Below, one piece after another: positions 2,386 to 23,066 of a DNA stretch of 64,000 bases. The position numbers and the translations under genes were made by a program. Origin of the DNA: a virus. Numbering within the stretch: the stretch's first letter is position 1; every line of letters starts with the position of its first letter. The stretch spans positions 24,850-88,849 of the IMG/VR virus record IMGVR_UViG_3300024336_000001. One strand, 5' to 3'. Under the pieces are notes generated by a model. It ran no database searches and was not told the DNA's origin. It worked only from the letters and a program-made list of their open reading frames with translations.

Positions 2386-2524
2386 ACAGGAAAAAATGGT
2401 GTATAATGTCTGACCCTATAAGCAGCACAATAGGTAAAAAAGCAGTAAAAATGTAAAAAAATGAAATTTATTGGGTTGTTTATACGATAACTATATATGA
2501 AGTAGATTTTAACGGGGGTGGAGA

Positions 2525-2758
2525 ATGTTAACCGCTTGTAAGGAAGTCATAAATACAATCGAAGCAGCTACAGTTACAAGTTTTCTTGTATTTGGCACTT
2601 CCTATATTTCCGAAACCGATCTTTTACAAGGCATTGAAGGCAAGAGGGACAGAACTATTGTAAAAGAAGCTATCAATGAATTGTTTTTTGTTTTCTATAC
2701 AAAGGTGAAAAAAGAAGCTGTCCGTTACCCTACTAGACCAGAATTTATAGTAAATTAA
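2525..2758 (+). CDS. Hypothetical protein
   Basis: GGGGTGGAG upstream of ATG; convergent with repressor gene. Confidence 0.5.
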   Translation: MLTACKEVINTIEAATVTSFLVFGTSYISETDLLQGIEGKRDRTIVKEAINELFFVFYTKVKKEAVRYPTRPEFIVN

Positions 2759-3284
2759 ACACCAGGTTTAAAACGCCCTCGATTTTTTCGGGCTTATCTT
2801 TAAGTTTATCAATGATTTTGTACATAGCTACTTTCTCTCGCTCTTCTAGCTGCGTAAGACTTATATTGGCCTGAATTGCAGCAGGCGTAACCAAGTGATC
2901 TCTTAAATCAAGAGTTATAAACCCTTTTAGCTCGTTTTCAAAAAAGCTATCCAAAATTTCATCTTTTGCTGTAGATGTTAAAAAGTGGTATTTCCAGTAA
3001 TTTTTATTTAAGTGCGCAGATATTTCTTCTATGTACTTAAGTAGCCCAGGCTCTTTGTTTCTTTCTTCGAAAGCAGCCAGAGCAAAATCATAGGCTTCTT
3101 CATCTGTTAAATTAAGAAGTTTAGCCAACGTCCGAACTTTATCTACTGGTGGAGCGATATGTTTGCCTGTTTCTATGTTTGAGATATAGCAGCGAGCAGA
3201 AATGTTCCCCAGCCCATCTAGCAAGCTTTGTTGGGTCATTTTCTTTTCTTTTCTATGTTTAGCGAGTAATTCAGCAAAGCTCAT
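2745..3284 (-). CDS. XRE-family HTH regulator, CI-like repressor candidate
   Basis: HRKEKKMTQQSL...YISNIETGK...LAKLLNL HTH_3 pattern plus C-terminal domain; operator array upstream. Confidence 0.85.
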   Translation of the reverse strand: MSFAELLAKHRKEKKMTQQSLLDGLGNISARCYISNIETGKHIAPPVDKVRTLAKLLNLTDEEAYDFALAAFEERNKEPGLLKYIEEISAHLNKNYWKYHFLTSTAKDEILDSFFENELKGFITLDLRDHLVTPAAIQANISLTQLEEREKVAMYKIIDKLKDKPEKIEGVLNLVFNLL

Positions 3285-3325
3285 TATATTACTAATAATA
3301 ACTATATTTTGATTTCAGCACAAGT

Positions 3326-3494
3326 TATATATACTCAGTATACCCATATCTATATACTAGCGCAGTAGACAAAAGTATACAGCGGCAGTATACTTGAATA
3401 TAGAGCAAGGAAAGAGAACGCCTAATTATGGAGCTAATAAGCAAGGTGATAACGGTTACATATACTAGCTCAGTATATATGACAGCTTAGTAGA
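3326..3494. promoter_or_regulatory. Array of five 17-bp palindromic operator-like sites, consensus TATACT-N5-AGTATA
   Basis: 3326 TATATATACTCAGTATA; 3353 TATACTAGCGCAGTAGA; 3376 TATACAGCGGCAGTATA; 3461 TATACTAGCTCAGTATA; 3478 TATGACAGCTTAGTAGA. Confidence 0.75.
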
Positions 3495-3514
3495 ACACTG
3501 GGCTAATCTTTATC

Positions 3515-3703
3515 TTATGAAAGGAGGTCGGTAAAAGGAACATTTAGTTTTTCGGCGACACGATCAAGCCAGTTGATACTTGGTACTCTTGCGCCGGATT
3601 CGATTTTTTTATAATAGCTTAAGGAGATGTGGAACTTTTGGGCAAATTCTTCTTGAGTCAAACCTAATTTGAGGCGAACCTCTTTAACTTTTATCTTATA
3701 CAT
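3515..3703 (-). CDS. Small XRE/Cro-like HTH protein
   Basis: VRLKLGLTQEEFAQKFHISLSYYKKIESGARVPS; probable ATG at 3703, 8 nt after TACAAT. Confidence 0.85.
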   Translation of the reverse strand: MYKIKVKEVRLKLGLTQEEFAQKFHISLSYYKKIESGARVPSINWLDRVAEKLNVPFTDLLS

Positions 3704-3777
3704 AATTAAAGATTGTAGTACGATAATGAGCTTAAGTAAGGGACACAAATAGGGAACTTTTTAAAAGGAGTAATGGG

Positions 3778-4170
3778 ATGAAAAACTACAAAGTAACGAT
3801 TGCTGAACAGCATCATTATAGTATTGCTGTAAAAGCTGCTGGGGAATTTGAGGCCGGAGAAATAGTAGAAAAGAAGTGGGATAACGGCAAGGGGCGTAAT
3901 GCATTTTCTGTAGAGGAAGTTAGTGGTTGTGATGTTGTGAGCACTGAACAGGTGTCAGATAAAAATGAAAAAATAGCGACTGTCCAAGATTTTAAAGATT
4001 ACAACAATAAAATGGAAAGGGCATTGAGAGACGTTTACCTATTTCTAAGGGCTAAAAATAAAGAAAACACATATAAATACCCAGAAGAAAATTTAGGGGA
4101 TATAAACCAACTCTTACAAGAGGTTTCAATTATATTTGAGCGAAAAATTCATCAGGAAGCACCAAGATAA
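3778..4170 (+). CDS. Protein with N-terminal DpnD/PcfM-like domain
   Basis: AGGAG RBS; MKNYKVTIAEQHHYSIAVKAAGEFEAGEIV. Confidence 0.6.
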   Translation: MKNYKVTIAEQHHYSIAVKAAGEFEAGEIVEKKWDNGKGRNAFSVEEVSGCDVVSTEQVSDKNEKIATVQDFKDYNNKMERALRDVYLFLRAKNKENTYKYPEENLGDINQLLQEVSIIFERKIHQEAPR

Positions 4171-4266
4171 AAATATTATTTGATGTATAATATAAAAAAT
4201 GAGCTTTTAGGGAAATTGCAGAAGATAAACGAGAAATAAAATCACTTTTTTGATATACTAATATAA

Positions 4267-4284
4267 TGTTTGATGCGTCAAACA
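4267..4284. promoter_or_regulatory. 18-bp palindromic site, copy 1 (TGTTTGATGCGTCAAACA)
   Basis: Abuts TATAAT at 4262-4267; differs by one base from the copy at 11078. Confidence 0.7.
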
Positions 4285-4315
4285 AACAAGGGTAATTTAG
4301 GGCAGTAAGGGACGT

Positions 4316-4825
4316 ATGAAAGAAATAAAAACAGACAACATACAAATTATTCAATATAAGAACGGGAAGCAACATAGTTTAAAAGATGAAATGGTGCGGA
4401 TGTTCCATTTTGAAAAACGAGATTTTAAAAATGCCCTCCGTTATTCCCATGAATACATTGTGGCTTGTCTTGAGATATCAAACAACCCTGAATATGCTGT
4501 AGGTATAAACACCTGGTATTTTCGTGATAATAAGAACGAGCGATTATTTCCAACCTGGAAAAGAGCCTTAATTTCTCAGCCAGTGATACCAGCCTCAATA
4601 ATTCAAAGACGCAGGCTTAACAAATACCTTCAGAACAGAATAAAGGAGCTGAAAGACACCAGTTCTTTAGACACTTTTTATGTCTTTGCTCCTTATAAAA
4701 TTGATATAATGAAAAGAGTCCTTAACACAATTTATTCGGAATATGTTTATTATCGGGATAAAGTGGGTAATACATCTATATTGAGTAGAGATGAGAGGAG
4801 ATATATATGCCACAAAAGAAAATGA
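4316..4825 (+). CDS. Hypothetical protein
   Basis: 169-aa ORF, AAGGGA upstream. Confidence 0.6.
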   Translation: MKEIKTDNIQIIQYKNGKQHSLKDEMVRMFHFEKRDFKNALRYSHEYIVACLEISNNPEYAVGINTWYFRDNKNERLFPTWKRALISQPVIPASIIQRRRLNKYLQNRIKELKDTSSLDTFYVFAPYKIDIMKRVLNTIYSEYVYYRDKVGNTSILSRDERRYICHKRK

Positions 4826-5260
4826 TAGCAACCCCTTTTGAAAAGCTTGCGGAAAAGTTAAGTCAGCGACTGGGCAAAAAAGTAGATTTAAACAAAGGCT
4901 GGGGAATATTTTTGCCCATAGCACTAAAAGCATCCTTGGGGAATTTACCTAAGAATGTTTTTTATTCAGCTACAGAACAAAAACCGTTTGCAGCTCCATT
5001 GCCTCCGAGATATTTAACCACAGCTTTTTCGACCATTTCCGTAAATTAGTCAAACCTAAACACGTCTTTAATCTTTTGAATTCAAAAATTCTTTTAAAAA
5101 TGGTACAGTATAAAGTATATTGACCGTATTGTTTGTATGCTTTATAGGATGCGTCACCAGTATGATTTAATAGCAGTTGAATAATGTGGGAGGGGAGCTT
5201 ATATAAGTCAGTAAATACCTTATACCCGAAATAAGGGGTAGCAAAATAGGGAGCCAGAAG

Positions 5261-6967
5261 ATGAATAAATTAAAAAAGAAAACAAAAGAAAAAGAAACGC
5301 TTCTCTCTGCTAATTTTATCACAAAAGATGGTTTAGAACACAAAGAACTAGACCTTCCTGAAAGTCACCCTGGAAAACTATCCCTCGGAAGAAATGTAAC
5401 CGATACAAATATTATCCCGCATGAAGACAGATTAGATCTTGATGGCGAAGATGTTGCTGGTTTATTCCCAGAGGTAAAAAAAGAAGTATTTGAACCAACG
5501 ACCGGTATTCAAGATAAAGATAAAAATTATATTCTTGAAAACGAAATCACAAATCTAGTTGAGGATGTCCAAAAAACAAAAGAAACCCCACAAATTATCA
5601 ATGCTAACGACCTTGTTTTTACTGTTACCAAAAAAGAACCAGGAGATAGGGTTGAGATTATCCAGGATTACCCGGCTAAAGTTTTTCCAGAGCCTAAAAA
5701 TAAAGCTTTTATTGAAAAAATAGACGAAATATGGAGCGAGACATCTTCAGGGATGTCTTTTCATCATCTCTACACAGAAGACTTTGCGCTAGATGGCCGA
5801 GAAATACACATTAAAGGGCAAAAGGTTCTCAATTTTGGGTCTTGTAGTTATTTGGGCTTAGAGCACCACCCAAAGCTAAAAGAAGGAGCGATAGAGGCAA
5901 TACAGAGATACGGCACTCAATACTCTTCGTCCATTACTTATCTGTCATTAGGTTTATATAAAGAACTGAAAGAAAAATACACAAAAATATTTGGAAGTAA
6001 CGTTGTGTTAGCCCCAACGACAACCTTGGCTCATGCATCTAGCATTCCATTGATAGCTGATGAACACGACGTTTTTTTGTTAGACCAACAAGTTCACAAC
6101 TCTGTACAAATGGGCACTCAATTAGCCGCAGCGCAGGGGACACCTTTTTTTATAATGCCTCACAACAATATCGAGGCTCTTGAAGATAAAATCCAGAAAT
6201 TGAAAAATGAACATAGAAAAATTTGGTATTTTCTTGATGGGGTTTACTCAATGTATGGAGATCTAGCCCCTATTGCCGAGCTAGAAAAGTTGCGAGATAA
6301 ATATGACAATTTATATCTTTATATAGATGATGCTCACGGAACAAGCTGGCGAGGAAAAAATGGGAAAGGTCATGCGTTAAGCTGCCTGAAAAGCTTAAGG
6401 AAGACCATAGTCGCTGTTTCTAACAACAAGGCGTTTGCTGGGGCCGGAGGATCCTTGGTTATAGAAGATCCAGAACTTTATAATGTTATAAGCAATTTTG
6501 GTCAGACAATGATTTTTGGGGGACCAATTCAACCGGCCAACTTAGGAGCATGTTTGGCTTCTGCCGATATTCATTTATCAAAAGAAATTTATGTGCTTCA
6601 AGATAAGCTTAGATCAAAGATTGATCTAAGAAATAGATTGTTTGATAAATATGATATTCCGGTTTTTGGAGATCGCCAAACCCCCATATCCTTTATTTGT
6701 GTGGGATCCCCAAAATCCCTTGGGATCCTTTTTCATAAATTGTTTGAAGATGGCATTTACACTAATTGTGCAGTATATCCGGCTGTATCCAAACAAAAAA
6801 GTGGTCTTAGGACAACAATGACTAATCATCTTACAGATGCGGACATTGAAAAATTTGTTGAGCGAGTTGCCTATCATTTGCCCAAAATTCTTCAAGAAGA
6901 AGGGTCCTCGATAGAAAAAATTAAAAAGAGGTTTAAAATAAAAGAGAGAAACCTTGTAAAGGTTTAA
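5261..6967 (+). CDS. PLP-dependent alpha-oxoamine synthase family enzyme (BioF/KBL/SPT/CqsA-LqsA superfamily) with long N-terminal extension; candidate autoinducer synthase
   Basis: NFGSCSYLGLEHHP, LDQQVHNS, DGVYSMYGD, IDDAHG, SNNKAFAGAGG (Schiff-base Lys ~K390), YPAV...GLR. Confidence 0.88.
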   Translation: MNKLKKKTKEKETLLSANFITKDGLEHKELDLPESHPGKLSLGRNVTDTNIIPHEDRLDLDGEDVAGLFPEVKKEVFEPTTGIQDKDKNYILENEITNLVEDVQKTKETPQIINANDLVFTVTKKEPGDRVEIIQDYPAKVFPEPKNKAFIEKIDEIWSETSSGMSFHHLYTEDFALDGREIHIKGQKVLNFGSCSYLGLEHHPKLKEGAIEAIQRYGTQYSSSITYLSLGLYKELKEKYTKIFGSNVVLAPTTTLAHASSIPLIADEHDVFLLDQQVHNSVQMGTQLAAAQGTPFFIMPHNNIEALEDKIQKLKNEHRKIWYFLDGVYSMYGDLAPIAELEKLRDKYDNLYLYIDDAHGTSWRGKNGKGHALSCLKSLRKTIVAVSNNKAFAGAGGSLVIEDPELYNVISNFGQTMIFGGPIQPANLGACLASADIHLSKEIYVLQDKLRSKIDLRNRLFDKYDIPVFGDRQTPISFICVGSPKSLGILFHKLFEDGIYTNCAVYPAVSKQKSGLRTTMTNHLTDADIEKFVERVAYHLPKILQEEGSSIEKIKKRFKIKERNLVKV

Positions 6968-6969
6968 CC

Positions 6970-9837
6970 TTGGATATATTTTACTGGTCTTCGATAGCTG
7001 CTTTTTTTCTCACATTATTTTTGGCCGTCTTTGTGTATTTTGAGGACAAGCAACGAAGCACCCACAAAGTATTAGGCTTGTTTGTTTTAATCTTGGCCGT
7101 AGGCATCTTTGGTGATTTTTATTACAGAATTCCAATAATTAACTCTTCTTTTATACCCAATATATTGCGGGGCATTTTCGCCATTGTGCCGTTTTCTCCG
7201 GCTTTATGGGTACATTTTATTTTCTTGTTTACAAAAATTAAACCAAAAAAACACGTACTCTCGACTATATATTTAAGTTCATTGGTGTTATCGGTGTTAA
7301 ATGTGCTATTTCCTAAATTTATTTTTAGTGAAGTTTCTTTAACGGCGACACATCTTCTTAAGACAACCCCGTCCATAGGATTTTATTTATTTGCTATATA
7401 TATCTTCGGGGGGGCAACTCTAAGTCTGTATTTTGTTATTAAAGCAAGAAAGCGCAGCGCAGGGCATTTTAGAGAGCAACTAAACTATTATTTGTTTGCA
7501 AACGTTATTATTTTTATAGCTGTAATATTGTATGCAATAGCGGTTGGTTTCTTTCCGGGCTTTCCTCGCCTGGATAATGTGTTTTTAAGTATATATGTTT
7601 TAATTATTGTTTATAGTATTACTAGAAGAGAGCTATTAAACATAAAACTCCTTGTTGGCCGTCTGCTCACATATGGGCTATTAGTAGCGGGGGTCGGCTT
7701 TGTGATGTATATGTCTCGTTTTTCCGTAGACAGTTTCTATTTATCTTCGCTCGTGGCTTTCGTTATCTCTACTTGGCTGGCATCATTTATTTTTATCAAG
7801 GGCAAAAGAAGCTTAATTAATAGAGTATTTGCAGGGTTTTTATTAACGCTATCTGCCGGAATATTTGGCGATTACTTTTATTATACGCCAGTGGTTAACA
7901 ATATTGCTCCAAGAGAATTGTTAAGAGCAGCGTATGTAATAACACCTTTTTCTGCATCTACGTTATTACATTTTATATTCTTATTCACAAAGACTAAGCC
8001 TCCCAAGGGTATAGTCCCATTATTATATACTGGATCTATATTATTGATGGTATTGAACTTAGCGATACCAGCGTTTTATTTTCAATCAGCCACAGTTAAA
8101 ACGTTAGGGGAGTTGAGCACGACAACGACACTGGCTTATCACGTCTTTAGTAGTTATAACCTGATGGCAGTATTGCTTAGTTTTGTGTTTGTAATACGCC
8201 GAAGAAGAAAAAGCAGAGGGAAATTAAGGGCGCAGATGAATTATTATCTTTTTGCTGCGGTTAGTATTATATGTGCAGCACTTTTATATTCTATTGCAAT
8301 GGGAATTTCTCCAAATACTCCAAGATTAGATAATATATTCTTGGTTCTTTATGTTTGTACCATTGCATATAGCATTACTAAAAGTGAACTATTTCAAATT
8401 CAGATTGTTATTAGTCGAACGCTTGCTTATGGGTTAACCTATGCCTCTGTAATATTTATTTTTTTGCTAATGAACCTACATATTAAAGAGCCGAATATAA
8501 AAGTATGGTTTAATCTGTTTTATTGTTTACTGTGTGCATTGGTAGCTCCTAGAGTAAGAGGAAAGCTTCAGACTGGATTAGAAGAGAAATTTGTGTCAGA
8601 CGATTATGAGCCTAATAAGGTTATAGATGAAATAACAAAAGATATTACCGGTGTTTATGAAAGAGAAGGTATTTTTAAAATTTTAATCAAAGCCATAGAA
8701 GCAATTATCAAAACCAAAGATAGTCATTTATTAGTTTTGGAAAAAGGGACTGAAAGAACCAACAATATTTTTCATTTATATGACAAGGATATGATAGAAG
8801 TTGCAAGTATGGACCCAGATAATCCGGTTATCAAATATTTTCATAATAAATATAAGCCAATAAAATTCAGTAAGCTAGATAAGGAAGCGCAGGGCGAACT
8901 AAAAAAATATTATATTAATAGATTTAGCATTCTAATTCCCTTATACTCTCCTCCCAATTTATTTGACGGGCTGCTTATTGTTGGACAAAAAGTATCAGAG
9001 GCCGCTTACACGAATAAAGATATAGGTTTGTTTCAAACCATTATAAATTTTACAAAAGTGATTTTAGATAGACTCCGGCCATATGAGGAAATCAAGCAGG
9101 AGTACGCAGAAGATAGAGAGCGAGTATATGAAGCTAAAATGATGGAAATTCAAGCCAAAAAAAATGAGGACTTCGCTTATACTATTCAAGAGTATAACCA
9201 CGAGATCAGAACCCCTTTAACTATGCTAATTGGAGCTATTCACACCTTACTTTATAAAATTAAAGGACAAAAGCCTATTTCGAACTTAAAAGAAGAGTTA
9301 GATGATATGCTAAAAAATGGAGAGAGGATGAACGATATAGTTGGCACAACATTAAGGCTTACTCCAGGCAGCATTAGTGAAAGAAAGCGGAAAAGAGATC
9401 CCCAAGGAATAAATGAAATTATCCAGCAAGCACTTGATCTATATACGTTTGTACACGAGGTTAAGGTGATTAAGAATTTTAATGAAGAAGAGATATATGT
9501 ATTCGGTGTTAATAATGATATTGAACGCATTTTCATAAATCTAATTCGTAATGCCGATGAAGCAATGCCTAAAGGAGGAAAGCTTCAAATTAAAACCTCC
9601 CTGCAAAATCAAGAAGCTTGCATTGAGATAAAAGACACCGGAATAGGAATCCCGGAAGAAGATCAACAAAAAGTATGGGAAATACATCGCTCAAGACATG
9701 TAACAAAAGGCAGAGGCTTAGGTTTGTCGATAGTTCATAGATTAGTGACTGAGCACCAAGCCAGGATCACTTTAAATAGTATAGAAGGGGAAGGCACAAC
9801 TTTTACTGTGCTTTTTCCGACAGTGGAGGCTATTTAG
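6970..9837 (+). CDS. Membrane sensor histidine kinase: 2x 7TM-type sensor, GAF-like domain, HisKA, HATPase
   Basis: H-box YNHEIRTPL, N-box IFINLIRNADEAM, G1 DTGIGIP, G2 GRGLGLSIV; ~520 hydrophobic N-terminal residues; TTG start 2 nt after synthase stop. Confidence 0.93.
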   Translation: MDIFYWSSIAAFFLTLFLAVFVYFEDKQRSTHKVLGLFVLILAVGIFGDFYYRIPIINSSFIPNILRGIFAIVPFSPALWVHFIFLFTKIKPKKHVLSTIYLSSLVLSVLNVLFPKFIFSEVSLTATHLLKTTPSIGFYLFAIYIFGGATLSLYFVIKARKRSAGHFREQLNYYLFANVIIFIAVILYAIAVGFFPGFPRLDNVFLSIYVLIIVYSITRRELLNIKLLVGRLLTYGLLVAGVGFVMYMSRFSVDSFYLSSLVAFVISTWLASFIFIKGKRSLINRVFAGFLLTLSAGIFGDYFYYTPVVNNIAPRELLRAAYVITPFSASTLLHFIFLFTKTKPPKGIVPLLYTGSILLMVLNLAIPAFYFQSATVKTLGELSTTTTLAYHVFSSYNLMAVLLSFVFVIRRRRKSRGKLRAQMNYYLFAAVSIICAALLYSIAMGISPNTPRLDNIFLVLYVCTIAYSITKSELFQIQIVISRTLAYGLTYASVIFIFLLMNLHIKEPNIKVWFNLFYCLLCALVAPRVRGKLQTGLEEKFVSDDYEPNKVIDEITKDITGVYEREGIFKILIKAIEAIIKTKDSHLLVLEKGTERTNNIFHLYDKDMIEVASMDPDNPVIKYFHNKYKPIKFSKLDKEAQGELKKYYINRFSILIPLYSPPNLFDGLLIVGQKVSEAAYTNKDIGLFQTIINFTKVILDRLRPYEEIKQEYAEDRERVYEAKMMEIQAKKNEDFAYTIQEYNHEIRTPLTMLIGAIHTLLYKIKGQKPISNLKEELDDMLKNGERMNDIVGTTLRLTPGSISERKRKRDPQGINEIIQQALDLYTFVHEVKVIKNFNEEEIYVFGVNNDIERIFINLIRNADEAMPKGGKLQIKTSLQNQEACIEIKDTGIGIPEEDQQKVWEIHRSRHVTKGRGLGLSIVHRLVTEHQARITLNSIEGEGTTFTVLFPTVEAI

Positions 9838-10072
9838 CCTCTGTAAGCGTCTGGGGTTTATTGATATATATAGACACTGGTTTATTTGAAGTAGGTCCAA
9901 ATAAAGCTTGCTTGCTTGATATCATGCTTTGAAAATTATCATCAGTATATTTGTGGCTATAGGGCACATATTTTTTTGCTAAATCGACAAATAGTTCCCC
10001 AGCCCTTTCAAAATTATCAACTATAATATTTTCAGCTAGACTAAAGTTTTCAATTACAATAAGGTTCCACAT
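9830..10072 (-). CDS. Hypothetical protein downstream of the response regulator
   Basis: GGGGA upstream of ATG; 3' end overlaps kinase 3' end. Confidence 0.55.
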   Translation of the reverse strand: MWNLIVIENFSLAENIIVDNFERAGELFVDLAKKYVPYSHKYTDDNFQSMISSKQALFGPTSNKPVSIYINKPQTLTEAK

Positions 10073-10114
10073 AGATATTCCCCAGGGCAGTTAAGATTAG
10101 CTGCTATCTCTTGA

Positions 10115-10612
10115 TTATTTAGATTCGTCTTCTAGTTCTTTGCGTCTGACATAAGATTTTTCTCTTAGATCATCTTTCATGTATTCACCATGCTTTTTGA
10201 TGACAACCTTTTCTAAAACATCTACTAATTCGTCTGGGTTAAATGGTTTTTTAAGATACCCTACTGCACCCCCCACAATGGGGCTAGTAGCTTTAGCCCA
10301 TTTTTTTTGATCTTCGTAAGCACTTAGTATAATAACACTCATTTCTTCATAAAAGCCTTCAGATTTGCGCCACTCCCTGAGCATATCAAGCCCATCCAGG
10401 TCAGGCATTTTTATGTCTAAAATTACACAATCAATTTTATTTGGTCCTATACCAACCCAGGTTTTATGTTTTTTTAATGTTTTCAAGCCTTCTTTTCCGC
10501 CGTTAGCGGTAATGATATTCCATCCTAAACGATCCTCAACAGTATTTTTTATCAAGTTTGTAACGCCCACCTCATCATCAATAGCTAAAATTAAAGGTTT
10601 ACCTTTTTTCAT
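10115..10612 (-). CDS. Single-domain response regulator (receiver only)
   Basis: ILAIDDE, VILDIKMPDLDG (phospho-Asp), ILSAY, YLKKPF; no DNA-binding output domain. Confidence 0.92.
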   Translation of the reverse strand: MKKGKPLILAIDDEVGVTNLIKNTVEDRLGWNIITANGGKEGLKTLKKHKTWVGIGPNKIDCVILDIKMPDLDGLDMLREWRKSEGFYEEMSVIILSAYEDQKKWAKATSPIVGGAVGYLKKPFNPDELVDVLEKVVIKKHGEYMKDDLREKSYVRRKELEDESK

Positions 10613-11039
10613 TTATGCCTCCTTTTTCAAATTTATTGTCCCAATAATCAAGACAATGCCCAAGAACATGATAAGGGCCTAAAAAGAAACCTTTAATTGG
10701 AAAATACACAATTAAAGGAAGATAGATAGCGAAAACAGTAAAAGCCTCTACAAACGGATGAGAGGGCTTTCTTTGACCGGCTTTATACTCTTTTTCAACC
10801 CGTGTTTTTTCGTATTCATTGCCAATGGCGTTTAGATAATAAGCCATATGTTTGTGGAAACTAGCTTGAGGATATGATTTTCTGTTCATAAGAGAATCAC
10901 GTATACAGCGAGCCATGTTTTTGTACCAAGAAACAAAGCCACCTAAAAAACCAATTATCGCTCCGTAAACTATTGACCATAACAATACGATTAAAAAGTA
11001 AATGTAAAATAAGATTTTTTTCATATAATAGCCTTCCAT
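10599..11039 (-). CDS. Membrane protein with two hydrophobic segments, overlapping the response regulator start
   Basis: Hydrophobic stretches at aa ~9-38 and ~97-121; 14-nt overlap containing GGAGG RBS of the regulator. Confidence 0.7.
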   Translation of the reverse strand: MEGYYMKKILFYIYFLIVLLWSIVYGAIIGFLGGFVSWYKNMARCIRDSLMNRKSYPQASFHKHMAYYLNAIGNEYEKTRVEKEYKAGQRKPSHPFVEAFTVFAIYLPLIVYFPIKGFFLGPYHVLGHCLDYWDNKFEKGGINEKR

Positions 11040-11077
11040 AATGACATCATTATATCACTATTTTAGCATTGTATCAC

Positions 11078-11095
11078 TGTTTGATGCATCAAACA
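11078..11095. promoter_or_regulatory. 18-bp perfect palindrome, copy 2 (TGTTTGATGCATCAAACA), in a divergent promoter region
   Basis: Perfect inverted repeat between 11039(-) and 11214(+); TATAAT at 11112-11117. Confidence 0.75.
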
Positions 11096-11213
11096 AATAA
11101 ACAATATGTTGTATAATGTAGAAATGTAAAATAACCATATGGCATAAGGCTATAAGTAACATTACATTCGGCTTATAATGCAATGTATTCTATAATAATG
11201 AGGGAGAATAAAA

Positions 11214-11480
11214 ATGAATAATGAATTTGGAATCAGCGATCTTCAAATAAAACTAATGGCAAATAAGCTGGGGTATCCAGGAGGGCTATCTGAGCAGGAA
11301 TTAGCGGATATTAAGGTGGGGCTTATTGGAGAAATATTCAAAAAAAGGGAAGAGCTAGTATACCCTGTTATTAAATATGCCCTTGAGCTAAGGCTTAAGA
11401 AAAATAAAGGTGTAGTTCGTACAAGATGTTGTGAAAAAGATGCTGCGAAAATAAGGTGCTGTGATAAGAATGAAGACTAA
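11214..11480 (+). CDS. Hypothetical protein
   Basis: GAGGGAG RBS. Confidence 0.6.
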   Translation: MNNEFGISDLQIKLMANKLGYPGGLSEQELADIKVGLIGEIFKKREELVYPVIKYALELRLKKNKGVVRTRCCEKDAAKIRCCDKNED

Positions 11481-11787
11481 GTATCTTAAAGATATCCTCA
11501 CAAGGATGTGCAGGCATCCTAAAAAATATCCATTAACAAACAGGTCTTCGGTTACAAATGCCCAAAGACTAGAAATAATTAAGGGGGTTTTCGATGAAAT
11601 GATAGAATGTTTATTAGAGGGGTGTAATTTTGAAATAAAGAATTTTGGGACAATAAAACGGAAAGAAAGACCAGGGAGAACTTATAGGAACCCCAAAACA
11701 GGTGATAAAATTAAAAAGGATCCGGCAACAACATTGAAGTTTAATATAGCAAAAAAGATGAGAGACAGGCTAAATGAGCAATCCTGA
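11470..11787 (+). CDS. HU/IHF-family DNA-binding protein
   Basis: FEIKNFGTIKRKERPGRTYRNPKTGDKI...LKFNIAKKMRDRLN signature. Confidence 0.9.
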   Translation: MKTKYLKDILTRMCRHPKKYPLTNRSSVTNAQRLEIIKGVFDEMIECLLEGCNFEIKNFGTIKRKERPGRTYRNPKTGDKIKKDPATTLKFNIAKKMRDRLNEQS

Positions 11788-11792
11788 ATATA

Positions 11793-12062
11793 ATGAGCCA
11801 AAGCAAGGAAATAAGTTCAAAGAGGGAAATGATGGGAGAAATGGATCAAAAAAGGATTATGAAAAAACTCGGAAGTAAAATTACTACTTTAAAGAAAAAG
11901 GAAGGGTTAGTTACTGAGGAATTAGCAAAGAAAATAGACGTAGCAAGAAGTACCTTATGGTGTATTGAGACGGGAAAAGTAGACCCTAAAATGAGCACAG
12001 TAGTAAAGATAGCAAAGTTTTTTGGTATGAGCATTTCGGAATTATTAGATTTTAATAAATAG
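11793..12062 (+). CDS. XRE-family HTH regulator
   Basis: EELAKKIDVARSTLWCIETGKVDPKMSTVVKIAKFFG. Confidence 0.88.
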   Translation: MSQSKEISSKREMMGEMDQKRIMKKLGSKITTLKKKEGLVTEELAKKIDVARSTLWCIETGKVDPKMSTVVKIAKFFGMSISELLDFNK

Positions 12063-12116
12063 AATCAGCCATATATTTTTTAAACTCATAATCTCGCATA
12101 AATAAATATATATACA

Positions 12117-12146
12117 TTGACAAATACACTAATTATGCATTATTAT
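12117..12146 (+). promoter_or_regulatory. Sigma70-type promoter for the recombinase
   Basis: TTGACA (12117-12122), 18 nt, TATTAT (12141-12146). Confidence 0.55.
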
Positions 12147-12168
12147 GCGAGAAACAAGGAGGTTTAAA

Positions 12169-13239
12169 TTGAATACTGAATTAAAATTACATAATGATAT
12201 AGAAACAAGGATTGAAAAGTTACCTGAACACTATAAAAAGTTTTTTATATGGAAGCAGCCAAACAAATCTACAAGACGACATACGATCAAATCATATTTA
12301 TTGCATTTGAATAAAGTAGAAGATCTATTAGGGAAAAAGTTGATGGAGAAAAAGGGGGCAGCATATGTTTCTGTAACCAAAGATGAGTTGGTTCAACTAA
12401 AAGACACTCTATCACATAAGCTTAACCATAAACCTTCAAGCGTGAATGCTTATTTAGCTTCAATAAAATCTATTTTCAAATATTGGACACAAGAGTTGGA
12501 GATTGTAGAAAAATCCCCTATCCCGCTGGACTTTCAAGAAGAAGAACCATACGCAGAGAAGGAAATGTATATTACTGAAGAACATTTAAGGGAAATAAAT
12601 AATATATTAGATGAGCTGGTTAAGACAGTTACAACTAAAATACCGGCCAGCATGAATGTCACAAGCCTTTTCTTCCATGCTTTACAACGCAAGGCAATTA
12701 TTAGGTTAATGATTGATACAGGGGCTAGAGTTGGGGAAATTGCTGGAATTACTGCAAATGATTTTGACAGATACGAAATTATGATAGACAAGAGAAAGCA
12801 CAAACAATGGCAAGTGAAAATATATAATTCTAAAAAACGAGATGGATCTCCCTTAGCTCGCTGGCTACCTATATCAAAAGAAACAAAAAAAGCAGTGGAT
12901 GAAATGCTTTATCATGCTCAATTAAAAATAAAAAACGGGGAACTGCCTTTATCAACTGCAAACTTTAGTAAAGCCTTTCATAGAAAAAATAGATCTAGGG
13001 CAATTCAAACTTGGATTAACGAGATACAAAAAGACCTTAATAAAATGGGGTACAATATCCCGAAGCTGACACCCCATCATTTTAGACATCTGTTTGCTAC
13101 CAGACTAATTCTGGCAGGCGAAAACGATGCAACCGTACAGAAAATGTTAGGGCAAAAAAACATTCAAAGTATAATCAGGTATGTTAAAGCCAGCAACCAA
13201 ATGGCTGGAGCTGCCAGCTATAGAACCTTTGGTTTTTAA
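12169..13239 (+). CDS. Tyrosine recombinase/integrase
   Basis: N-terminal core-binding-like region; DTGARVGE (R), HHFRH (HxxR), MLGQ, IIRY (Y); AGGAGG RBS favours TTG 12169 over ATG 12145. Confidence 0.92.
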   Translation: MNTELKLHNDIETRIEKLPEHYKKFFIWKQPNKSTRRHTIKSYLLHLNKVEDLLGKKLMEKKGAAYVSVTKDELVQLKDTLSHKLNHKPSSVNAYLASIKSIFKYWTQELEIVEKSPIPLDFQEEEPYAEKEMYITEEHLREINNILDELVKTVTTKIPASMNVTSLFFHALQRKAIIRLMIDTGARVGEIAGITANDFDRYEIMIDKRKHKQWQVKIYNSKKRDGSPLARWLPISKETKKAVDEMLYHAQLKIKNGELPLSTANFSKAFHRKNRSRAIQTWINEIQKDLNKMGYNIPKLTPHHFRHLFATRLILAGENDATVQKMLGQKNIQSIIRYVKASNQMAGAASYRTFGF

Positions 13240-13240
13240 C

Positions 13241-13483
13241 TTATATATCTTCAAAGATTAATGAGACGTGATCCCCGTCTTTAACAGCTAACAAATTTTT
13301 GTTTAGTTCGGGCCTATACCTAGTTAACCAGCCACCTACGTTTGCTAAAATGTTTTTTATGTAAGTTCCTTGATTTTCAGGATTTAATACTTGAGGATCC
13401 TTTATTACAAATTTCCCATCTGTCTCAATTATAGAGATGATTTTTTCTATAGTTGCCTCAGTTTTTTGTACCTTATCTGACAA
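13241..13483 (-). CDS. Hypothetical protein
   Basis: ORF convergent with the recombinase. Confidence 0.55.
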   Translation of the reverse strand: MSDKVQKTEATIEKIISIIETDGKFVIKDPQVLNPENQGTYIKNILANVGGWLTRYRPELNKNLLAVKDGDHVSLIFEDI

Positions 13484-13492
13484 AATTAACGC

Positions 13493-13777
13493 CTAATAAG
13501 AGTACGAAGGGTAGCTGTAATAATCGCTTGATTTCTTTGTTTTATATTTATTGGTTCCGGTTTTCCCTGTGTAAGTATTATAGTTCCCAGAATAGCTGAA
13601 ATTATCTTTTACGGTGTTGTTTGATTTAGTTCTATAGTATCCGTTTACATATGTGCCATTTTTGCGAGTATAGCCTTTTACATAGGTCGAGCCTACACAA
13701 AACACAGTGGTAGTAAACATAAAAAGCATTAATAATGCTGAGATAAAATATTTTTTCATTGAAAAAACTCCCTTCAT
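13493..13777 (-). CDS. Small secreted basic, Tyr-rich protein
   Basis: Signal peptide followed by YVKGYTRKNGTYVNGYYRT...DNFS...N.YTGKTGT, a widespread uncharacterised motif. Confidence 0.75.
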   Translation of the reverse strand: MKGVFSMKKYFISALLMLFMFTTTVFCVGSTYVKGYTRKNGTYVNGYYRTKSNNTVKDNFSYSGNYNTYTGKTGTNKYKTKKSSDYYSYPSYSY

Positions 13778-13843
13778 TTAACTTAAGATAATGGTAGCAC
13801 AGCACCAACTTTTTTTTAAACCTTTTCCGGGGTTTTGTGCCTA

Positions 13844-13861
13844 ATTTTGATGTGCCAAAAA
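13844..13861. promoter_or_regulatory. Degenerate copy of the 18-bp palindrome upstream of the replication operon
   Basis: ATTTTGATGTGCCAAAAA fits core TTTGAT-RYRY-CAAA. Confidence 0.45.
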
Positions 13862-13902
13862 CTAAAATGTAGTAATTAGGCTATTACGCCATAATGTTGG
13901 CT

Positions 13903-14094
13903 ATGCCTAAAAACAAGATAAATAATTTTCCTCATTCAACAAAACTCAGATTTACAAAAAACAACTTCAATAAGTTAAGAAAAATCAAATACGACAATAA
14001 CTCTTCATTCAATAAAATCATAAACGCTTTAATTTCACAAATTGACGAAAAATCTATTTCAAGCACTATCAAAAGCTGGAAGGCGAGTCTATGA
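13903..14094 (+). CDS. Small basic protein, ribbon-helix-helix-like DNA binder
   Basis: STKLRFTKNNFNKLRKI...SFNKIINALI; ATGA overlap with helicase. Confidence 0.5.
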   Translation: MPKNKINNFPHSTKLRFTKNNFNKLRKIKYDNNSSFNKIINALISQIDEKSISSTIKSWKASL

Positions 14095-15908
14095 ATAAGC
14101 CTGGCCGACCTTTTGAAGAGTCTCTTTTAACAATGGAGCAAAACCGACTTGTATATTGTGGAACGGCTGCTCAATTAAGGAATTGCTCTAAATCAATACC
14201 TATAAAGTATAACGACAAAACAAGATATTTTGAATTTCCAATTTTCCCAACTATCGCAAAACACCTTGAAAAAATTGTCCCCCATATGCAGATAGATGTG
14301 AGGCTGAAAAAGCACCTAACCAGTAAGTCCAAACAGTTAAGCAACTTCTGGGATCTTAAGCTATCAAAGGACATAAAAGAAGATGCTCCATTAAAAGATG
14401 TTGGGCTTATTGATATTAAACTTTTTCCTCATCAAAAAGTTTCTTCCCGTATTAACGAGTTATTTACAAGGGTACTTTGTTTGGATGAAATGGGACTAGG
14501 TAAAACCATAGTAGCTCTTCGGTCGGCCTTGTACCGTAAAATTTTCAATAAAAACAAACGCTGCCTAATTATCTGCCCAAATTCTATCAGGGTTACTGTA
14601 TGGGCAAATGAAATAAAAAGCCGGACAGGGCTGGGGATTTGTGTGCCAGACGGCACGAAGATCAAGCGAGAAAAGCTAATCAAGCAATTTATGGATCTTA
14701 ATGCTTCTAATGAAGCTTATCATTTTATGGTTATCAACTATGAGATGACCTACAAATACCTGGATCTCATAAAGCAATTCGCTGATGACCAGATGCTTAT
14801 TATCGATGAATCTCACTACATGAAAAACAGATTATCTCAAAGAACTAAAGCGATTTTCAAAATTAATCCTAAGTATCTAATAAGTATGACCGGAACTCCA
14901 TTCGACAATAAAATCGAAGATATTTTTGCTTTAGCTGAATATGTCTGCCCTTTAATTTTTTCCGGGAGCTACACTAAATTTAAAGACCAGTATTGTATAG
15001 AGCGCACTATCCCTCTTAAATCAAAAGGCAGGGTAATCCAGCGCAATGTAATTGCAGGCTATAAAAATCTTGCTCAACTTAGAGCCACATTAGGGCTTAT
15101 TTCTTATAGGCGCACAAAAAAAGAAGTTCTTGATTTGCCACCTAAACTTTATGAAAACCGACAAATTCAAATGACTGTAGAGCAATGGAAATGTTACGAA
15201 AAAATGCGTCTGGAATGTTATGTAATGGTTGCCAAACTAGACGAAAGCCAAATAGAAGCAACGGCCAAGGGCATTTTGGCAAAAATGTTGCGACTTTCAC
15301 AGATTACAGATGGCTATTTAACTGATTTTGCTGATAAAAGCAAAACTTATTGGATTAAAAATAGTGGAAAAGTAGCCGAGCTTGATGATCTTCTGGAGCA
15401 AATAATAAATAGCGGACACAAGGCGGTTGTATGGTCCCGGTTTGTTGAAGTAGTAACCCACTTAACCAAAAGATATAAAGAAAAATACGGAGCTGTTTAT
15501 ATTAATGGGCAAGTCCCTACAAGTATGCGGCCAGAAATTATTGACCGCTTCCAAACAGACGAAAACACAAAAGTTTTTGTCGGCCAAATTCAAAGTTGCG
15601 GAGTTGGCATGACTCTTCATGCTGCCAGTTATGAGATTTTTTTTGATAAGTGCTTCATTTCCTCTTCAGGTATCACACAGGCGGAAGATCGTTGCCACAG
15701 AATAGGAATGAAAGATCGACTGACGATAATACATCTTATTGCAAAAAGTACAATCGATGAATATTGGGAAAAGAATCTTAAAAATAAGCTTCAGGCTGTC
15801 AATGAAGTTACTCAAGATAATCAAGAGCAAGAATACACAGTTATCCCCGGAAAAGTTACTAAAGGAGATTTACTAGATTTATTAAAAATAGGAAAGAAGG
15901 GGGCCTAA
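14091..15908 (+). CDS. SNF2-family (SF2) helicase/ATPase
   Basis: DEMGLGKT, IIDESH, MTGTP, GVGMTL, QAEDRCHRIG. Confidence 0.93.
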   Translation: MNKPGRPFEESLLTMEQNRLVYCGTAAQLRNCSKSIPIKYNDKTRYFEFPIFPTIAKHLEKIVPHMQIDVRLKKHLTSKSKQLSNFWDLKLSKDIKEDAPLKDVGLIDIKLFPHQKVSSRINELFTRVLCLDEMGLGKTIVALRSALYRKIFNKNKRCLIICPNSIRVTVWANEIKSRTGLGICVPDGTKIKREKLIKQFMDLNASNEAYHFMVINYEMTYKYLDLIKQFADDQMLIIDESHYMKNRLSQRTKAIFKINPKYLISMTGTPFDNKIEDIFALAEYVCPLIFSGSYTKFKDQYCIERTIPLKSKGRVIQRNVIAGYKNLAQLRATLGLISYRRTKKEVLDLPPKLYENRQIQMTVEQWKCYEKMRLECYVMVAKLDESQIEATAKGILAKMLRLSQITDGYLTDFADKSKTYWIKNSGKVAELDDLLEQIINSGHKAVVWSRFVEVVTHLTKRYKEKYGAVYINGQVPTSMRPEIIDRFQTDENTKVFVGQIQSCGVGMTLHAASYEIFFDKCFISSSGITQAEDRCHRIGMKDRLTIIHLIAKSTIDEYWEKNLKNKLQAVNEVTQDNQEQEYTVIPGKVTKGDLLDLLKIGKKGA

Positions 15909-15910
15909 AA

Positions 15911-16138
15911 ATGAAGCTGTCTAAATACCAAGAAAAGAGATTAGAAAAGCTGAAACAAAACAAAGGAACCCCTGTGTTTCTTGCAGGTACAGAAGGCTCC
16001 ACCAAAGTTTCCGGGACAATAGTTTCTTTTAAGGTGGTTAAACCAAGAAAAAACCTAAAAATTCTTTATGGCTTGTTGTTTGAAGGCCAAAACAGTCCTA
16101 TTTACGGCTCTAAAAAAGCCTTTGTTTTCGCATCTTAA
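15911..16138 (+). CDS. Small basic hypothetical protein
   Basis: Operonic position, RBS. Confidence 0.6.
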   Translation: MKLSKYQEKRLEKLKQNKGTPVFLAGTEGSTKVSGTIVSFKVVKPRKNLKILYGLLFEGQNSPIYGSKKAFVFAS

Positions 16139-16156
16139 ATTAAAAGGAGAAAAACC

Positions 16157-16732
16157 ATGACATCTATAAACGAAACTTTAGAAAGTGAAATTGATAAAGA
16201 ATTAAATGAGCTTCAAGAAAATAAACCTGAGATGGTTCCCATTGAAGCTCTTGATGAAGCAGTTCAGGGAGCTTTTGATAAACAGTTTAAAGAATATGCA
16301 GAAAGATATTTAAGCTCGTATAACAAATATGTGCAGGCTAAGGCTGTTATGGATGATTTAAAAAACAAATCTGATGCTGCGGAGGTAGCAATGATTTCTT
16401 TTGCAAGGGATATTGGGGTTTTAACCAGTGAAGTAGCTCTTACTTATGACGGAATGGGAACGTTCAAGATTAAAGAGGCATATTTCGGTAATGTGACAAA
16501 GGCAAATCGGGCGAAAGTGTTTGCATTCTTTCGAAACCAGAAACGAGAAAACGAATTTTTTGAATTGTCAGTACGGAAAGCTGAGGTCAATAAATTTGTT
16601 CGAGAGAAGGTCGATAAATGCAAGAAAAATAGTAAAGGAGGTGAGATCGAGCCTGATTTACCAGATGGCGTTTCTTTTGGAAAGAAACACAGCGTTTCAT
16701 TATCAAACCGAAACTCTAGTTTTGGTGTATAA
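16157..16732 (+). CDS. Phage replication-region coiled-coil protein
   Basis: AGGAG RBS; helical N-half, C-terminal LPDGV motif. Confidence 0.6.
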   Translation: MTSINETLESEIDKELNELQENKPEMVPIEALDEAVQGAFDKQFKEYAERYLSSYNKYVQAKAVMDDLKNKSDAAEVAMISFARDIGVLTSEVALTYDGMGTFKIKEAYFGNVTKANRAKVFAFFRNQKRENEFFELSVRKAEVNKFVREKVDKCKKNSKGGEIEPDLPDGVSFGKKHSVSLSNRNSSFGV

Positions 16733-16758
16733 AAAATATTTTTAAGGAGGAAGTTATT

Positions 16759-17772: not shown

Positions 17773-17773
17773 T

Positions 17774-17791
17774 CGTTTGATACACCAAACA
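17774..17791. promoter_or_regulatory. 18-bp palindromic site, copy 3 (CGTTTGATACACCAAACA)
   Basis: Lies in a 45-nt intergenic gap; 15/18 identical to copy 2. Confidence 0.6.
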
Positions 17792-17817
17792 AAAACAACT
17801 ACAAGGAGGTATAATGT

Positions 17818-18282: not shown

Positions 18283-18308
18283 GGGGATCCCTTGTAAAGC
18301 AAAATTTT

Positions 18309-22489: not shown

Positions 22490-22491
22490 AT

Positions 22492-23065: not shown

Positions 23066-23066
23066 A

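What the first reader, a model, noticed from the sequence alone, without database searches (positions are those of the whole stretch)
5261..11039. Candidate phage-encoded quorum-sensing system: alpha-oxoamine synthase + double-7TM histidine kinase + receiver-only regulator
Seen: a PLP enzyme with intact motifs, followed 2 nt later by a multi-TM kinase, converging on a response regulator operon. The block lies between the repressor region and HU-XRE-recombinase, with phage genes on both sides and no other biotin or sphingolipid genes. Known: this superfamily condenses acyl-CoA with an amino acid or SAM. Its members CqsA (Vibrio) and LqsA (Legionella) make alpha-hydroxy/amino-ketone autoinducers sensed by linked membrane kinases (CqsS, LqsS; regulator LqsR). 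The phage communication systems I know are peptide-based (arbitrium, agr-like, Rap-Phr) or receptor-only (VqmA/LuxR-like). Inference: the phage makes and senses its own lipid-like signal, to count lysogens or steer lysis-lysogeny or host behaviour. The GSCSYLGL variant differs from canonical SNDYLGL, so the signal may be chemically new.
Basis: partly seen in the sequence, partly recalled or inferred. Interest (0 to 1): 0.95.

Follow-up and report, generated by a model that had tools for sequence, protein, structure and literature searches.

The report
Phage-borne aminoketone synthase plus sensor kinase
A complete marine temperate phage carries an alpha-oxoamine synthase next to a 14-helix membrane histidine kinase, a lone receiver protein and a small membrane protein; comparative genomics suggests a signal-maker/sensor pair of a kind not yet described, but no function has been shown.

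Summary
The genes sit where stated, have intact catalytic motifs, and lie inside a complete 88.8-kb temperate phage genome with direct terminal repeats. Near-identical DNA recurs in independent seawater metagenomes.

The enzyme is not a CqsA/LqsA relative (88 bits against a 428-bit cut-off), and it is not BioF, KBL or SPT. It belongs to a deep, uncharacterised alpha-oxoamine synthase clade (best model PRK07505). Members are often fused to a C-terminal FemAB/GNAT-like domain. The nearest solved relative is the glutamate-using Alb29.

That clade is linked to signalling genes:
- A histidine kinase lies within 3 genes in 25 of 73 cellular loci.
- CqsA/LqsA positive controls gave 5 of 9 loci.
- KBL/BioF/SPT paralogues from the same genomes gave 0 of 24.

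Two related marine contigs between them carry the same four genes, in a different order. A Margulisbacteria single-cell contig has the synthase followed by the same 7TM sensor module fused to a PP2C phosphatase instead of a kinase.

Best reading (about 45%): the synthase makes a hydrophobic aminoketone-derived signal that the 7TM kinase senses. Main rival (about 30%): a sensor-controlled membrane-lipid enzyme.

Other first-stage notes on this same genome had already flagged the palindrome, the duplicated sensor and the receiver-only output.

The parts
5261..6967 (+). Alpha-oxoamine synthase (PLP), 568 aa. Residues 1-170 are a hydrophilic extension with no Pfam match; residues 171-545 are the catalytic domain. 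It belongs to the PRK07505-type clade and has no GNAT fusion.
6970..9837 (+). Sensor histidine kinase, 955 aa: two tandem HisKA_7TM modules (about 1-252 and 253-520), a cytoplasmic middle domain (about 530-730), then HisKA and HATPase_c.
9830..10072 (-). 80-aa ORF downstream of the receiver gene. No family and no homologue were found, so its status as a gene is uncertain.
10115..10612 (-). Receiver-only response regulator, 165 aa, with an intact D12/D13/D66/S97/K122 set. It is the only receiver domain in the phage genome.
10599..11039 (-). Small membrane protein, 146 aa, of no known family. It overlaps the receiver gene by 14 nt. A 33%-identical homologue sits directly upstream of the receiver and kinase genes in the marine contig L083.
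4267..4284 (.). 18-bp palindrome TGTTTGATGCGTCAAACA, immediately after a TATAAT and 31 nt before the ORF at 4316. It looks like an operator on the left side of the cassette.
11078..11095 (.). Perfect copy of the palindrome, in the divergent promoter region between the membrane-protein/receiver operon (-) and the HU-XRE-integrase operon (+).
4316..5049 (+). Two ORFs of unknown function (169 aa and 80 aa) between the left palindrome and the synthase. They may belong to the same transcription unit.
   Evidence: an RNA-library contig spans 4765-5142

Best explanation
The block is one functional signalling module that a temperate marine phage acquired from a Margulisbacteria-like lineage.

Proposed mechanism:
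- The stand-alone alpha-oxoamine synthase condenses an amino acid with an acyl thioester to give an alpha-aminoketone, or a product derived from it. The product is probably hydrophobic.
- The co-translated kinase detects that product, or the related host-made compound, in the membrane through its two short-looped 7TM modules.
- The kinase changes the phosphorylation of the receiver-only regulator. That regulator acts by protein-protein contact or as a phosphate sink. The conserved small membrane protein is a likely partner, and the kinase may also cross-talk to a host OmpR-type regulator.
- Both arms are bracketed by one operator-like palindrome that also sits at the HU-XRE-integrase promoter. 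This ties the expression of the module to the lysogeny region.

Shown: gene content, intact catalytic residues, clade placement, conserved linkage, and recurrence in the ocean.

Inferred: that the product is a signal, that this kinase senses it, the phosphotransfer partner, and any effect on lysis-lysogeny.
For: 1. The 2-nt gap and upstream AAAGG suggest that synthase and kinase are translationally coupled.
2. The nearest relatives of both proteins are co-located. L082 carries a kinase (about 41-45% identical) convergent with the synthase P0006 (58% identical). L083 carries the membrane protein (33%), then the receiver (54%), then the 7TM kinase. So the four genes are kept, in a different order, across two short contigs that may or may not come from one element.
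3. In Margulisbacteria contig L002 the synthase (49% identical) is followed 84 bp later by the same 7TM plus middle module (29% identity over kinase residues 258-731, E 3e-48), fused to SpoIIE/PP2C instead of a kinase. The conserved partner is therefore the sensor, not the output.
4. Across the clade, the only recurrent neighbours in 73 cellular loci are kinases (30 loci), STAS-like DUF7793 (24 loci) and response regulators.
5. The kinase share of neighbouring genes is 36/389 within 3 genes against 9/394 at 5 genes or more.
6. Controls: CqsA/LqsA loci gave 5/51 genes and 5/9 loci; KBL/BioF/SPT paralogues gave 0/144 genes and 0/24 loci (Fisher p=1.6e-5 and 3e-4).
7. The linkage appears in at least six phyla with different kinase types and gene orders.
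8. Precedent from established knowledge: CqsA/CqsS and LqsA/LqsS pair an AOS-family synthase with a multi-pass membrane kinase.
9. RNA-library contigs identical to parts of the synthase, kinase, receiver and membrane-protein genes occur in two metatranscriptome runs. This is a weak hint because no silent control stretch was laid.
Against: - There is no biochemical evidence of any kind.
- The enzyme is far from CqsA/LqsA, so the analogy is by architecture only.
- Two-component genes often sit next to the genes they regulate, so adjacency alone does not show a ligand-receptor relation.
- The linked kinases in other phyla are heterogeneous (PAS, GAF, hybrid). No single receptor family co-varies with the enzyme.
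- The enrichment statistics are not corrected for shared ancestry.
- The phage has no DNA-binding output, so any route to gene expression is unknown.
- Most clade members carry a C-terminal FemAB/GNAT-like domain that the phage lacks. The phage product may therefore differ or be incomplete.
- The host is not identified.
Confidence: 0.45

Rival explanations
1. Sensor-controlled lipid remodelling, with no intercellular signal. The synthase makes a sphingoid-like or aminolipid precursor that changes the host envelope, for example for superinfection exclusion or membrane adaptation. The 7TM kinase monitors membrane state and regulates the enzyme or its pathway as a homeostatic loop.
For: - After Alb29, the nearest solved relatives are serine palmitoyltransferases (112 bits).
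- Most clade members are fused to a FemAB/GNAT-like acyltransferase domain, as expected for N-acylation of an amino-lipid.
- Two-component genes commonly neighbour their target genes (established knowledge).
- 7TM sensors with short loops suit membrane sensing.
- Some viruses are known to carry SPT-type enzymes (own knowledge, not checked here).
Against: - True SPT paralogues in the same Bacteroidota genomes show no kinase within 3 genes (0 of 18 neighbouring genes at 3 SPT loci).
- The SPT family models score far below their cut-offs (164 against 640).
- The phage copy lacks the acyltransferase domain, and no other lipid gene is nearby.
Confidence: 0.3
2. Eavesdropping or hijack module. The kinase senses a host-made compound (the host has its own synthase and several 7TM sensors) and reports host density or state to the phage. 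The phage synthase mainly manipulates host signalling rather than serving phage-to-phage communication.
For: - The phage synthase clade is sister to the Margulisbacteria-like stand-alone synthases (SH-aLRT 100).
- Margulisbacteria genome G001 has at least five paralogues of the 7TM sensor. One is a kinase followed by an OmpR-type regulator.
- Phage receptors that listen to host autoinducers are known: VP882 VqmA and phage LuxR receptors (PMC6456758, PMC7790227).
Against: - The host is not established. No att or spacer-like match was found in G001 or G002.
- Kinase identity to the G001 paralogues is only 25-29%.
- This reading is a sub-case of the best explanation rather than a true alternative.
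Confidence: 0.12
3. Unconnected cargo or artefact. The synthase and the two-component genes are independent morons that happen to be neighbours, or a host fragment was joined to a phage contig by assembly.
For: - Accessory genes cluster near lysogeny modules in many temperate phages (established knowledge).
- Single contigs in runs X2 and X4 diverge at about 5421 and about 11017-11031, which hints at variants with other flanks.
Against: - The same genes stay together in L082, L083 and L002.
- Linkage is clade-wide, with clean negative controls.
- The record has terminal repeats and is rated complete.
- Two independent DNA runs cover the block and both flanks.
- GC content is uniform.
- The two best copies of a palindrome that occurs only three times in the genome bracket the block.
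Confidence: 0.08

Closest known systems
CqsA/CqsS (Vibrio) and LqsA/LqsR/LqsS (Legionella) alpha-hydroxyketone quorum sensing
   Same: An AOS-superfamily PLP enzyme is encoded next to a multi-pass membrane histidine kinase with short loops. The neighbourhood statistic is the same as for this clade: a kinase within 3 genes in 5/9 control loci against 25/73.
   Different: - The enzyme clade differs: 88 bits against a 428-bit cut-off, 49.5 bits to solved CqsA, and a long branch between the clades.
- The sensor is HisKA_7TM, duplicated to 14 helices, not the CqsS/LqsS type.
- The regulator is a bare receiver.
- The system is carried by a phage.
PRK07505-type alpha-oxoamine synthases, mostly fused to a C-terminal FemAB/GNAT-like domain (PF13480/PF04339); function unknown
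   Same: This is the best family model (272 bits). Identity is 41-50% over the catalytic domain. The clade is monophyletic with SH-aLRT 100 and shares the FGSC[SG]Y[LF]GLE motif.
   Different: - The score is below the curated cut-off (342).
- The phage enzyme lacks the C-terminal domain of about 410 aa and has a 170-aa N-terminal extension instead.
- Whether M. tuberculosis BioF2 (Rv0032), which does not complement bioF (PMC12910592), belongs to this clade was not tested. The review describes its extra domain as N-terminal.
Alb29, the AOS of albogrisin biosynthesis in Streptomyces albogriseolus (PDB 8XHA, 8I7U)
   Same: It is the nearest solved relative (125 bits) and has a similar SSYSYLGL motif. 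It makes aminoketones from an amino acid and acyl-CoAs (PMC11906848).
   Different: It is a distant match (125 bits) that sits in a natural-product pathway, not a signalling context. Its glutamate specificity cannot be transferred to the phage enzyme.
Phage-encoded quorum-sensing genes: agrB/agrD/agrC of C. difficile phage phiCDHM1; prophage LuxI/LuxR of Phaeobacter inhibens
   Same: A phage carries both a signal-making gene and a receptor. phiCDHM1 even carries a histidine kinase without its DNA-binding regulator (PMC3901668; bioRxiv 10.64898/2026.07.02.736140).
   Different: Those signals are a peptide and an acyl-homoserine lactone. No AOS-type synthase on a phage came up in the papers searched. 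The synthase matches no PHROG family.

Membership tests
CqsA/LqsA alpha-hydroxyketone autoinducer synthases (NCBIfam NF005526) | Score above the curated family cut-off (428 bits) | tested here: not met
   88.5-89.2 bits
CqsA/LqsA alpha-hydroxyketone autoinducer synthases (NCBIfam NF005526) | Groups with bona fide members in a tree | tested here: not met
   Nine loci over the cut-off form their own clade. The phage enzyme lies across a branch of 2.69 changes per site, SH-aLRT 100 (quick IQ-TREE).
CqsA/LqsA alpha-hydroxyketone autoinducer synthases (NCBIfam NF005526) | Encoded beside a cognate membrane sensor kinase | tested here: met
   The kinase starts 2 nt downstream. This is a resemblance in layout only.
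CqsA/LqsA alpha-hydroxyketone autoinducer synthases (NCBIfam NF005526) | Makes an alpha-hydroxy/amino-ketone autoinducer | not testable with these tools
   Needs enzyme assay and LC-MS.
Alpha-oxoamine synthase superfamily (fold-type I PLP, PF00155) | PLP-binding lysine, the His/Asp/His set, and a full-length domain | tested here: met
   PF00155 1e-24 over profile positions 2-361 of 361. H279, D356, H359 and K390 are invariant. K390 aligns with the lysine of the Alb29 and SPT chains.
PRK07505 subfamily (NCBIfam NF005697) | Score above the curated cut-off (342 bits) | tested here: not met
   272.3 bits. It is the best of all models but below the cut-off.
PRK07505 subfamily (NCBIfam NF005697) | Monophyly with the clade, and the shared FGSC[SG]Y[LF]GLE motif | tested here: met
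BioF (TIGR00858), KBL (NF005394), SPT (NF047600) | Score above the equivalog cut-off and grouping with the family | tested here: not met
   174 against 426, 144 against 460 and 164 against 640 bits. The families form separate clades.
Two-component sensor histidine kinase with HisKA_7TM sensor (PF16927) | 7TM module, H-box histidine and HATPase_c | tested here: met
   PF16927 in two stretches, HisKA 1.5e-7, HATPase_c 9e-23. H744 is invariant.
Response regulator, receiver-only (PF00072) | Receiver domain with acidic pocket, phospho-acceptor Asp, Ser/Thr and Lys; no output domain | tested here: met
   PF00072 1.3e-20 over residues 8-133 of 165. D12, D13, D66, S97 and K122 were read from the sequence.
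Cognate kinase-regulator pair | Phosphotransfer from this kinase to this receiver | not testable with these tools
   The only evidence is co-location here and as an operon in L083.

The most novel reading that the evidence does not exclude
PRK07505-type alpha-oxoamine synthases are a previously unrecognised, widespread class of signal synthases. They would be paired with kinase, PP2C or STAS sensors in at least six bacterial phyla. This phage would carry a complete private copy (synthase, 14-helix receptor kinase, receiver) and use it to count lysogens or read host density, which would make it the first aminoketone-type, two-component communication system on a virus.
Probability: 0.3. Interest if true: 0.9.

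Novelty: new variant of a known kind. Interest (0 to 1): 0.74.

Why it matters
Phage communication systems found in the papers searched here use peptides (arbitrium, agr, Rap-Phr) or acyl-homoserine lactones, or they only listen to host signals. A phage carrying both an AOS-type synthase and a membrane kinase would add a new chemical channel and a new receptor type.

The wider result may matter more. A large uncharacterised enzyme clade sits next to signalling genes as often as true CqsA/LqsA synthases do, while its metabolic paralogues never do. This gives a concrete, testable candidate for unknown signalling chemistry in Bacteroidota, Cyanobacteria, Myxococcota, Actinomycetota and Margulisbacteria.

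Tried and rejected
The longer contigs holding P0008 (17.9 kb), P0010 (40.6 kb), P0009 (31.3 kb) and P0125 (7.6 kb) could not be read.
- Three IMG/VR scans found no further viral copy: synthase alone, synthase alignment, and kinase alignment.
- Megablast of 5000-25000 against GenBank phages gave no match. tblastn of the synthase there found only ordinary BioF/KBL genes at under 30% identity.
- Host search: the first 20 kb of the window against two Margulisbacteria genomes matched only the synthase gene (64% nt) and gave no att-like or spacer-like hit.
- The small membrane protein was not found in those genomes. It had no PHROG, Pfam or Atlas lead.
- The careful tree did not finish in two 300-s runs, so the quick tree was used.
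- Full-text searches for an AOS-kinase signalling link, HisKA_7TM ligands or BioF2 function gave nothing usable beyond the papers cited.
- RNA-library contigs left many bins uncovered, including most of the kinase. Runs with small word shares (X14-X18) are not used for habitat.
- L084-L086 from the metagenome scan match only the kinase catalytic core and were set aside.
Full report
**What is there.**
The window is bases 24850-88849 of an 88,849-bp IMG/VR virus record with direct terminal repeats, rated 100% complete. The finding's coordinates hold five ORFs.
- 5261-6967 (+) encodes a 568-aa protein. Residues 188-536 match Aminotran_1_2 end to end.
- Two nucleotides after its TAA stop, a TTG preceded by AAAGG opens a 955-aa protein at 6970-9837. 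It has two HisKA_7TM stretches, HisKA and HATPase_c.
- On the other strand, converging on and overlapping the kinase end by 8 nt, lie three ORFs: a 146-aa membrane protein (10599-11039), a 165-aa receiver-only regulator (10115-10612) and an 80-aa ORF (9830-10072).
- Catalytic residues are intact. In the synthase these are H279, D356, H359 and K390 (invariant among relatives; aligned to Alb29 and SPT chains). In the kinase it is H744. In the receiver they are D12, D13, D66, S97 and K122 (read).
- The two 7TM halves are 42% identical, so the duplication is old.

**Context.**
- Left of the block is a repressor-like HTH gene at 2745-3284(-).
- Right of it are HU, an XRE protein, a tyrosine integrase and an SNF2 helicase.
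- Further on are a primase-helicase, a Dda-like helicase, a 3187-aa tail fibre, baseplate-like proteins and a tape measure.
- The genome has no second receiver domain and no PF13480 acyltransferase domain.
- The 18-bp palindrome TGTTTGATGCRTCAAACA occurs three times in the whole genome, against 0.04 expected per window.
- One copy follows a TATAAT at 4267, ahead of two unknown ORFs and the synthase.
- A perfect copy lies at 11078, in the divergent promoter region between the membrane-protein/receiver operon and the HU-XRE-integrase operon.
- A degenerate copy lies at 17774, ahead of the primase module.
- Other first-stage notes had flagged this palindrome, and I confirm it.

**Is the block real?**
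- Near-identical DNA is held by many seawater or marine runs from several studies.
- Two of them, laid on 2500-14500, cover all thirty bins. Nearly all contigs are at 99% identity or more, and some bridge the gene junctions.
- GC content is even across the block and its flanks.
- Misassembly is therefore unlikely.
- Two metatranscriptome runs hold contigs identical to parts of the synthase, kinase, receiver, membrane-protein, HU/XRE, integrase and repressor genes. No silent control stretch could be laid, so this is only a hint of expression.

**What the enzyme is.**
- NCBIfam ranks it as PRK07505 at 272 bits (cut-off 342), bioF 174, SPT 164, KBL 144, ALAS 107 and CqsA/LqsA type 88.
- Among solved structures the best is Alb29 (8XHA family, 125 bits). 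Alb29 condenses L-glutamate with acyl-CoAs (PMC11906848). SPT follows at 112, KBL at about 89, E. coli BioF at 80 and CqsA at 49.5.
- I built a tree of 76 catalytic domains (quick IQ-TREE). The references came from genomes and were flagged by family cut-offs: nine CqsA/LqsA loci, KBL, BioF and SPT.
- The tree puts the phage enzyme in a 41-member clade, cut off from all canonical families by the longest internal branch (2.69, SH-aLRT 100).
- Inside that clade, the phage and three marine metagenome proteins (56-58% identical, with the same long N-terminal extension) form a group (SH-aLRT 100). Together with P0010 and a group of stand-alone enzymes that includes two proteins labelled Margulisbacteria, they form a clade with SH-aLRT 100.
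- Most other members are proteins of about 815 aa, with the synthase at the N-terminus and a FemAB/GNAT-like extension of about 410 aa at the C-terminus.
- No function for this clade turned up in the literature searched. M. tuberculosis BioF2 fails to complement bioF (PMC12910592), but I did not test whether it belongs to this clade.
- The GSCSYLGL motif is a trait of the clade.

**Is the enzyme linked to sensors?**
The best 80 loci were kept with 10-kb flanks.
- After clustering all neighbours, the only recurrent families were histidine kinases (30 of 73 loci), a 134-aa protein that is DUF7793 (SpoIIAA/STAS-like, 24 loci) and response regulators.
- Kinases make up 10%, 8% and 10% of genes at distances 1, 2 and 3, against 2.3% at distance 5 or more. 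In 39 of 73 loci a kinase, regulator or DUF7793 lies within two genes.
- The same script on 19-kb stretches gave clear controls. For nine CqsA/LqsA loci (positive control) it found 5/51 genes and 5/9 loci. For 24 KBL, BioF, SPT and related paralogues from the same genomes it found 0/144 genes and 0/24 loci. Fisher p is 1.6e-5 for genes and 3e-4 for loci.
- The linkage occurs in Bacteroidota, Cyanobacteria, Myxococcota, Actinomycetota, Gammaproteobacteria and Margulisbacteria, with several gene orders and kinase types: PAS, GAF, hybrid and HisKA_3.
- These counts are not corrected for shared descent.

**The closest relatives keep the module.**
- The kinase has only four close homologues (44-58% identical). 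Three of them (693-695 aa) have a single 7TM; the fourth, P0125 (660 aa), begins inside the 7TM region.
- A metagenome scan with their alignment returned two informative marine contigs.
- L082 carries a kinase C-terminus convergent with the synthase P0006.
- L083 carries a homologue of the small membrane protein (33%), then the receiver (54%), then the 7TM kinase, in one direction. A SpoIIE-like gene lies upstream on the other strand.
- L002, a contig from a Margulisbacteria single-cell genome, has the synthase followed after 84 bp by a 737-aa protein. Its 7TM and middle domains align with the phage kinase (29% over 474 residues, E 3e-48), but its output is a SpoIIE/PP2C phosphatase.
- That genome has at least five paralogues of the sensor. 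One is a kinase followed by an OmpR-type regulator.
- The conserved partner of the synthase is thus the 7TM sensor module, and the output varies.

**Reading.**
- The data support a functional module in which the enzyme's product and the 7TM sensor are connected.
- The most economical mechanism is the one known for CqsA/CqsS and LqsA/LqsS: a hydrophobic aminoketone-derived compound sensed within the membrane.
- The same data also fit a sensor that controls, or reports on, a membrane-lipid enzyme.
- The output path is open. The only phage regulator is a bare receiver, its conserved neighbour is a small membrane protein of no known family, and the cellular paralogue uses an OmpR-type regulator, so cross-talk to the host is possible.
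- A role in lysis-lysogeny is suggested only by position and by the shared palindrome.

**Novelty.**
- Phage-borne kinases and receivers exist in PHROGs, but the synthase matches no PHROG family.
- Known phage systems with both signal and receptor are agr in phiCDHM1 (PMC3901668) and prophage LuxI/LuxR (bioRxiv 10.64898/2026.07.02.736140).
- A 2026 review of phage communication mentions no AOS-type or two-component system of this kind.
- I class this as a new variant of a known kind, with a wider lead: the whole enzyme clade may be a signalling family.

**Limits.**
- The careful tree did not finish.
- The host is unknown.
- Nothing here shows a product, a ligand or phosphotransfer.

Noticed in passing
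window 4267-4284, 11078-11095, 17774-17791: The 18-bp palindrome TGTTTGATGCRTCAAACA occurs only three times in the 88.8-kb genome. The two best copies bracket the signalling block. The third, degenerate copy precedes the primase module. It looks like the operator of an unidentified phage regulator.
   Followed up: yes
L011:10001-14892, L025, L029, L035, L043, L050, L053, L079 (Bacteroidota): A recurrent cassette runs synthase-GNAT fusion, then one or two DUF7793 (SpoIIAA/STAS-like) genes, then a PAS hybrid histidine kinase. A divergent version with a 223-aa regulator occurs in L046, L061, L068 and L069. No paper describing it came up in the searches made here.
   Followed up: partly
L002:2531-4741 and genome G001 (C43, C145, C8, C5): A Margulisbacteria single-cell genome has at least five paralogues of the 7TM plus middle-domain sensor. 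Their outputs are either a kinase (followed by an OmpR-type regulator in L088) or a SpoIIE/PP2C phosphatase (next to the synthase).
   Followed up: partly
window about 5421 and about 11017-11031: Single contigs in two independent DNA runs diverge from the phage sequence at these points. Both points lie close to the outer ends of the block, which may mean related elements carry the block in other flanks. Other loose ends lie inside the block, so this may be ordinary strain mosaicism.
   Followed up: no
window 18309-21515: A 1068-aa protein combines a DNA primase N-terminus (phrog_47 and others) with a helicase-like C-terminus (phrog_10371). Another first-stage note calls it a DnaG-type primase fused to an MCM-like helicase. 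Only the PHROG matches were checked.
   Followed up: partly
window 27984-37547 (-): A 3187-aa ORF has multiple tail-fibre family matches (phrog_18345 in 8 stretches). This is unusually long for one tail-fibre gene.
   Followed up: no
window 5261-5770 (synthase residues 1-170): A hydrophilic, Lys/Glu-rich N-terminal extension has no family match. It is shared only with the three closest marine homologues. The Margulisbacteria-like relatives have shorter extensions (66-104 aa), and the rest of the clade has none.
   Followed up: partly
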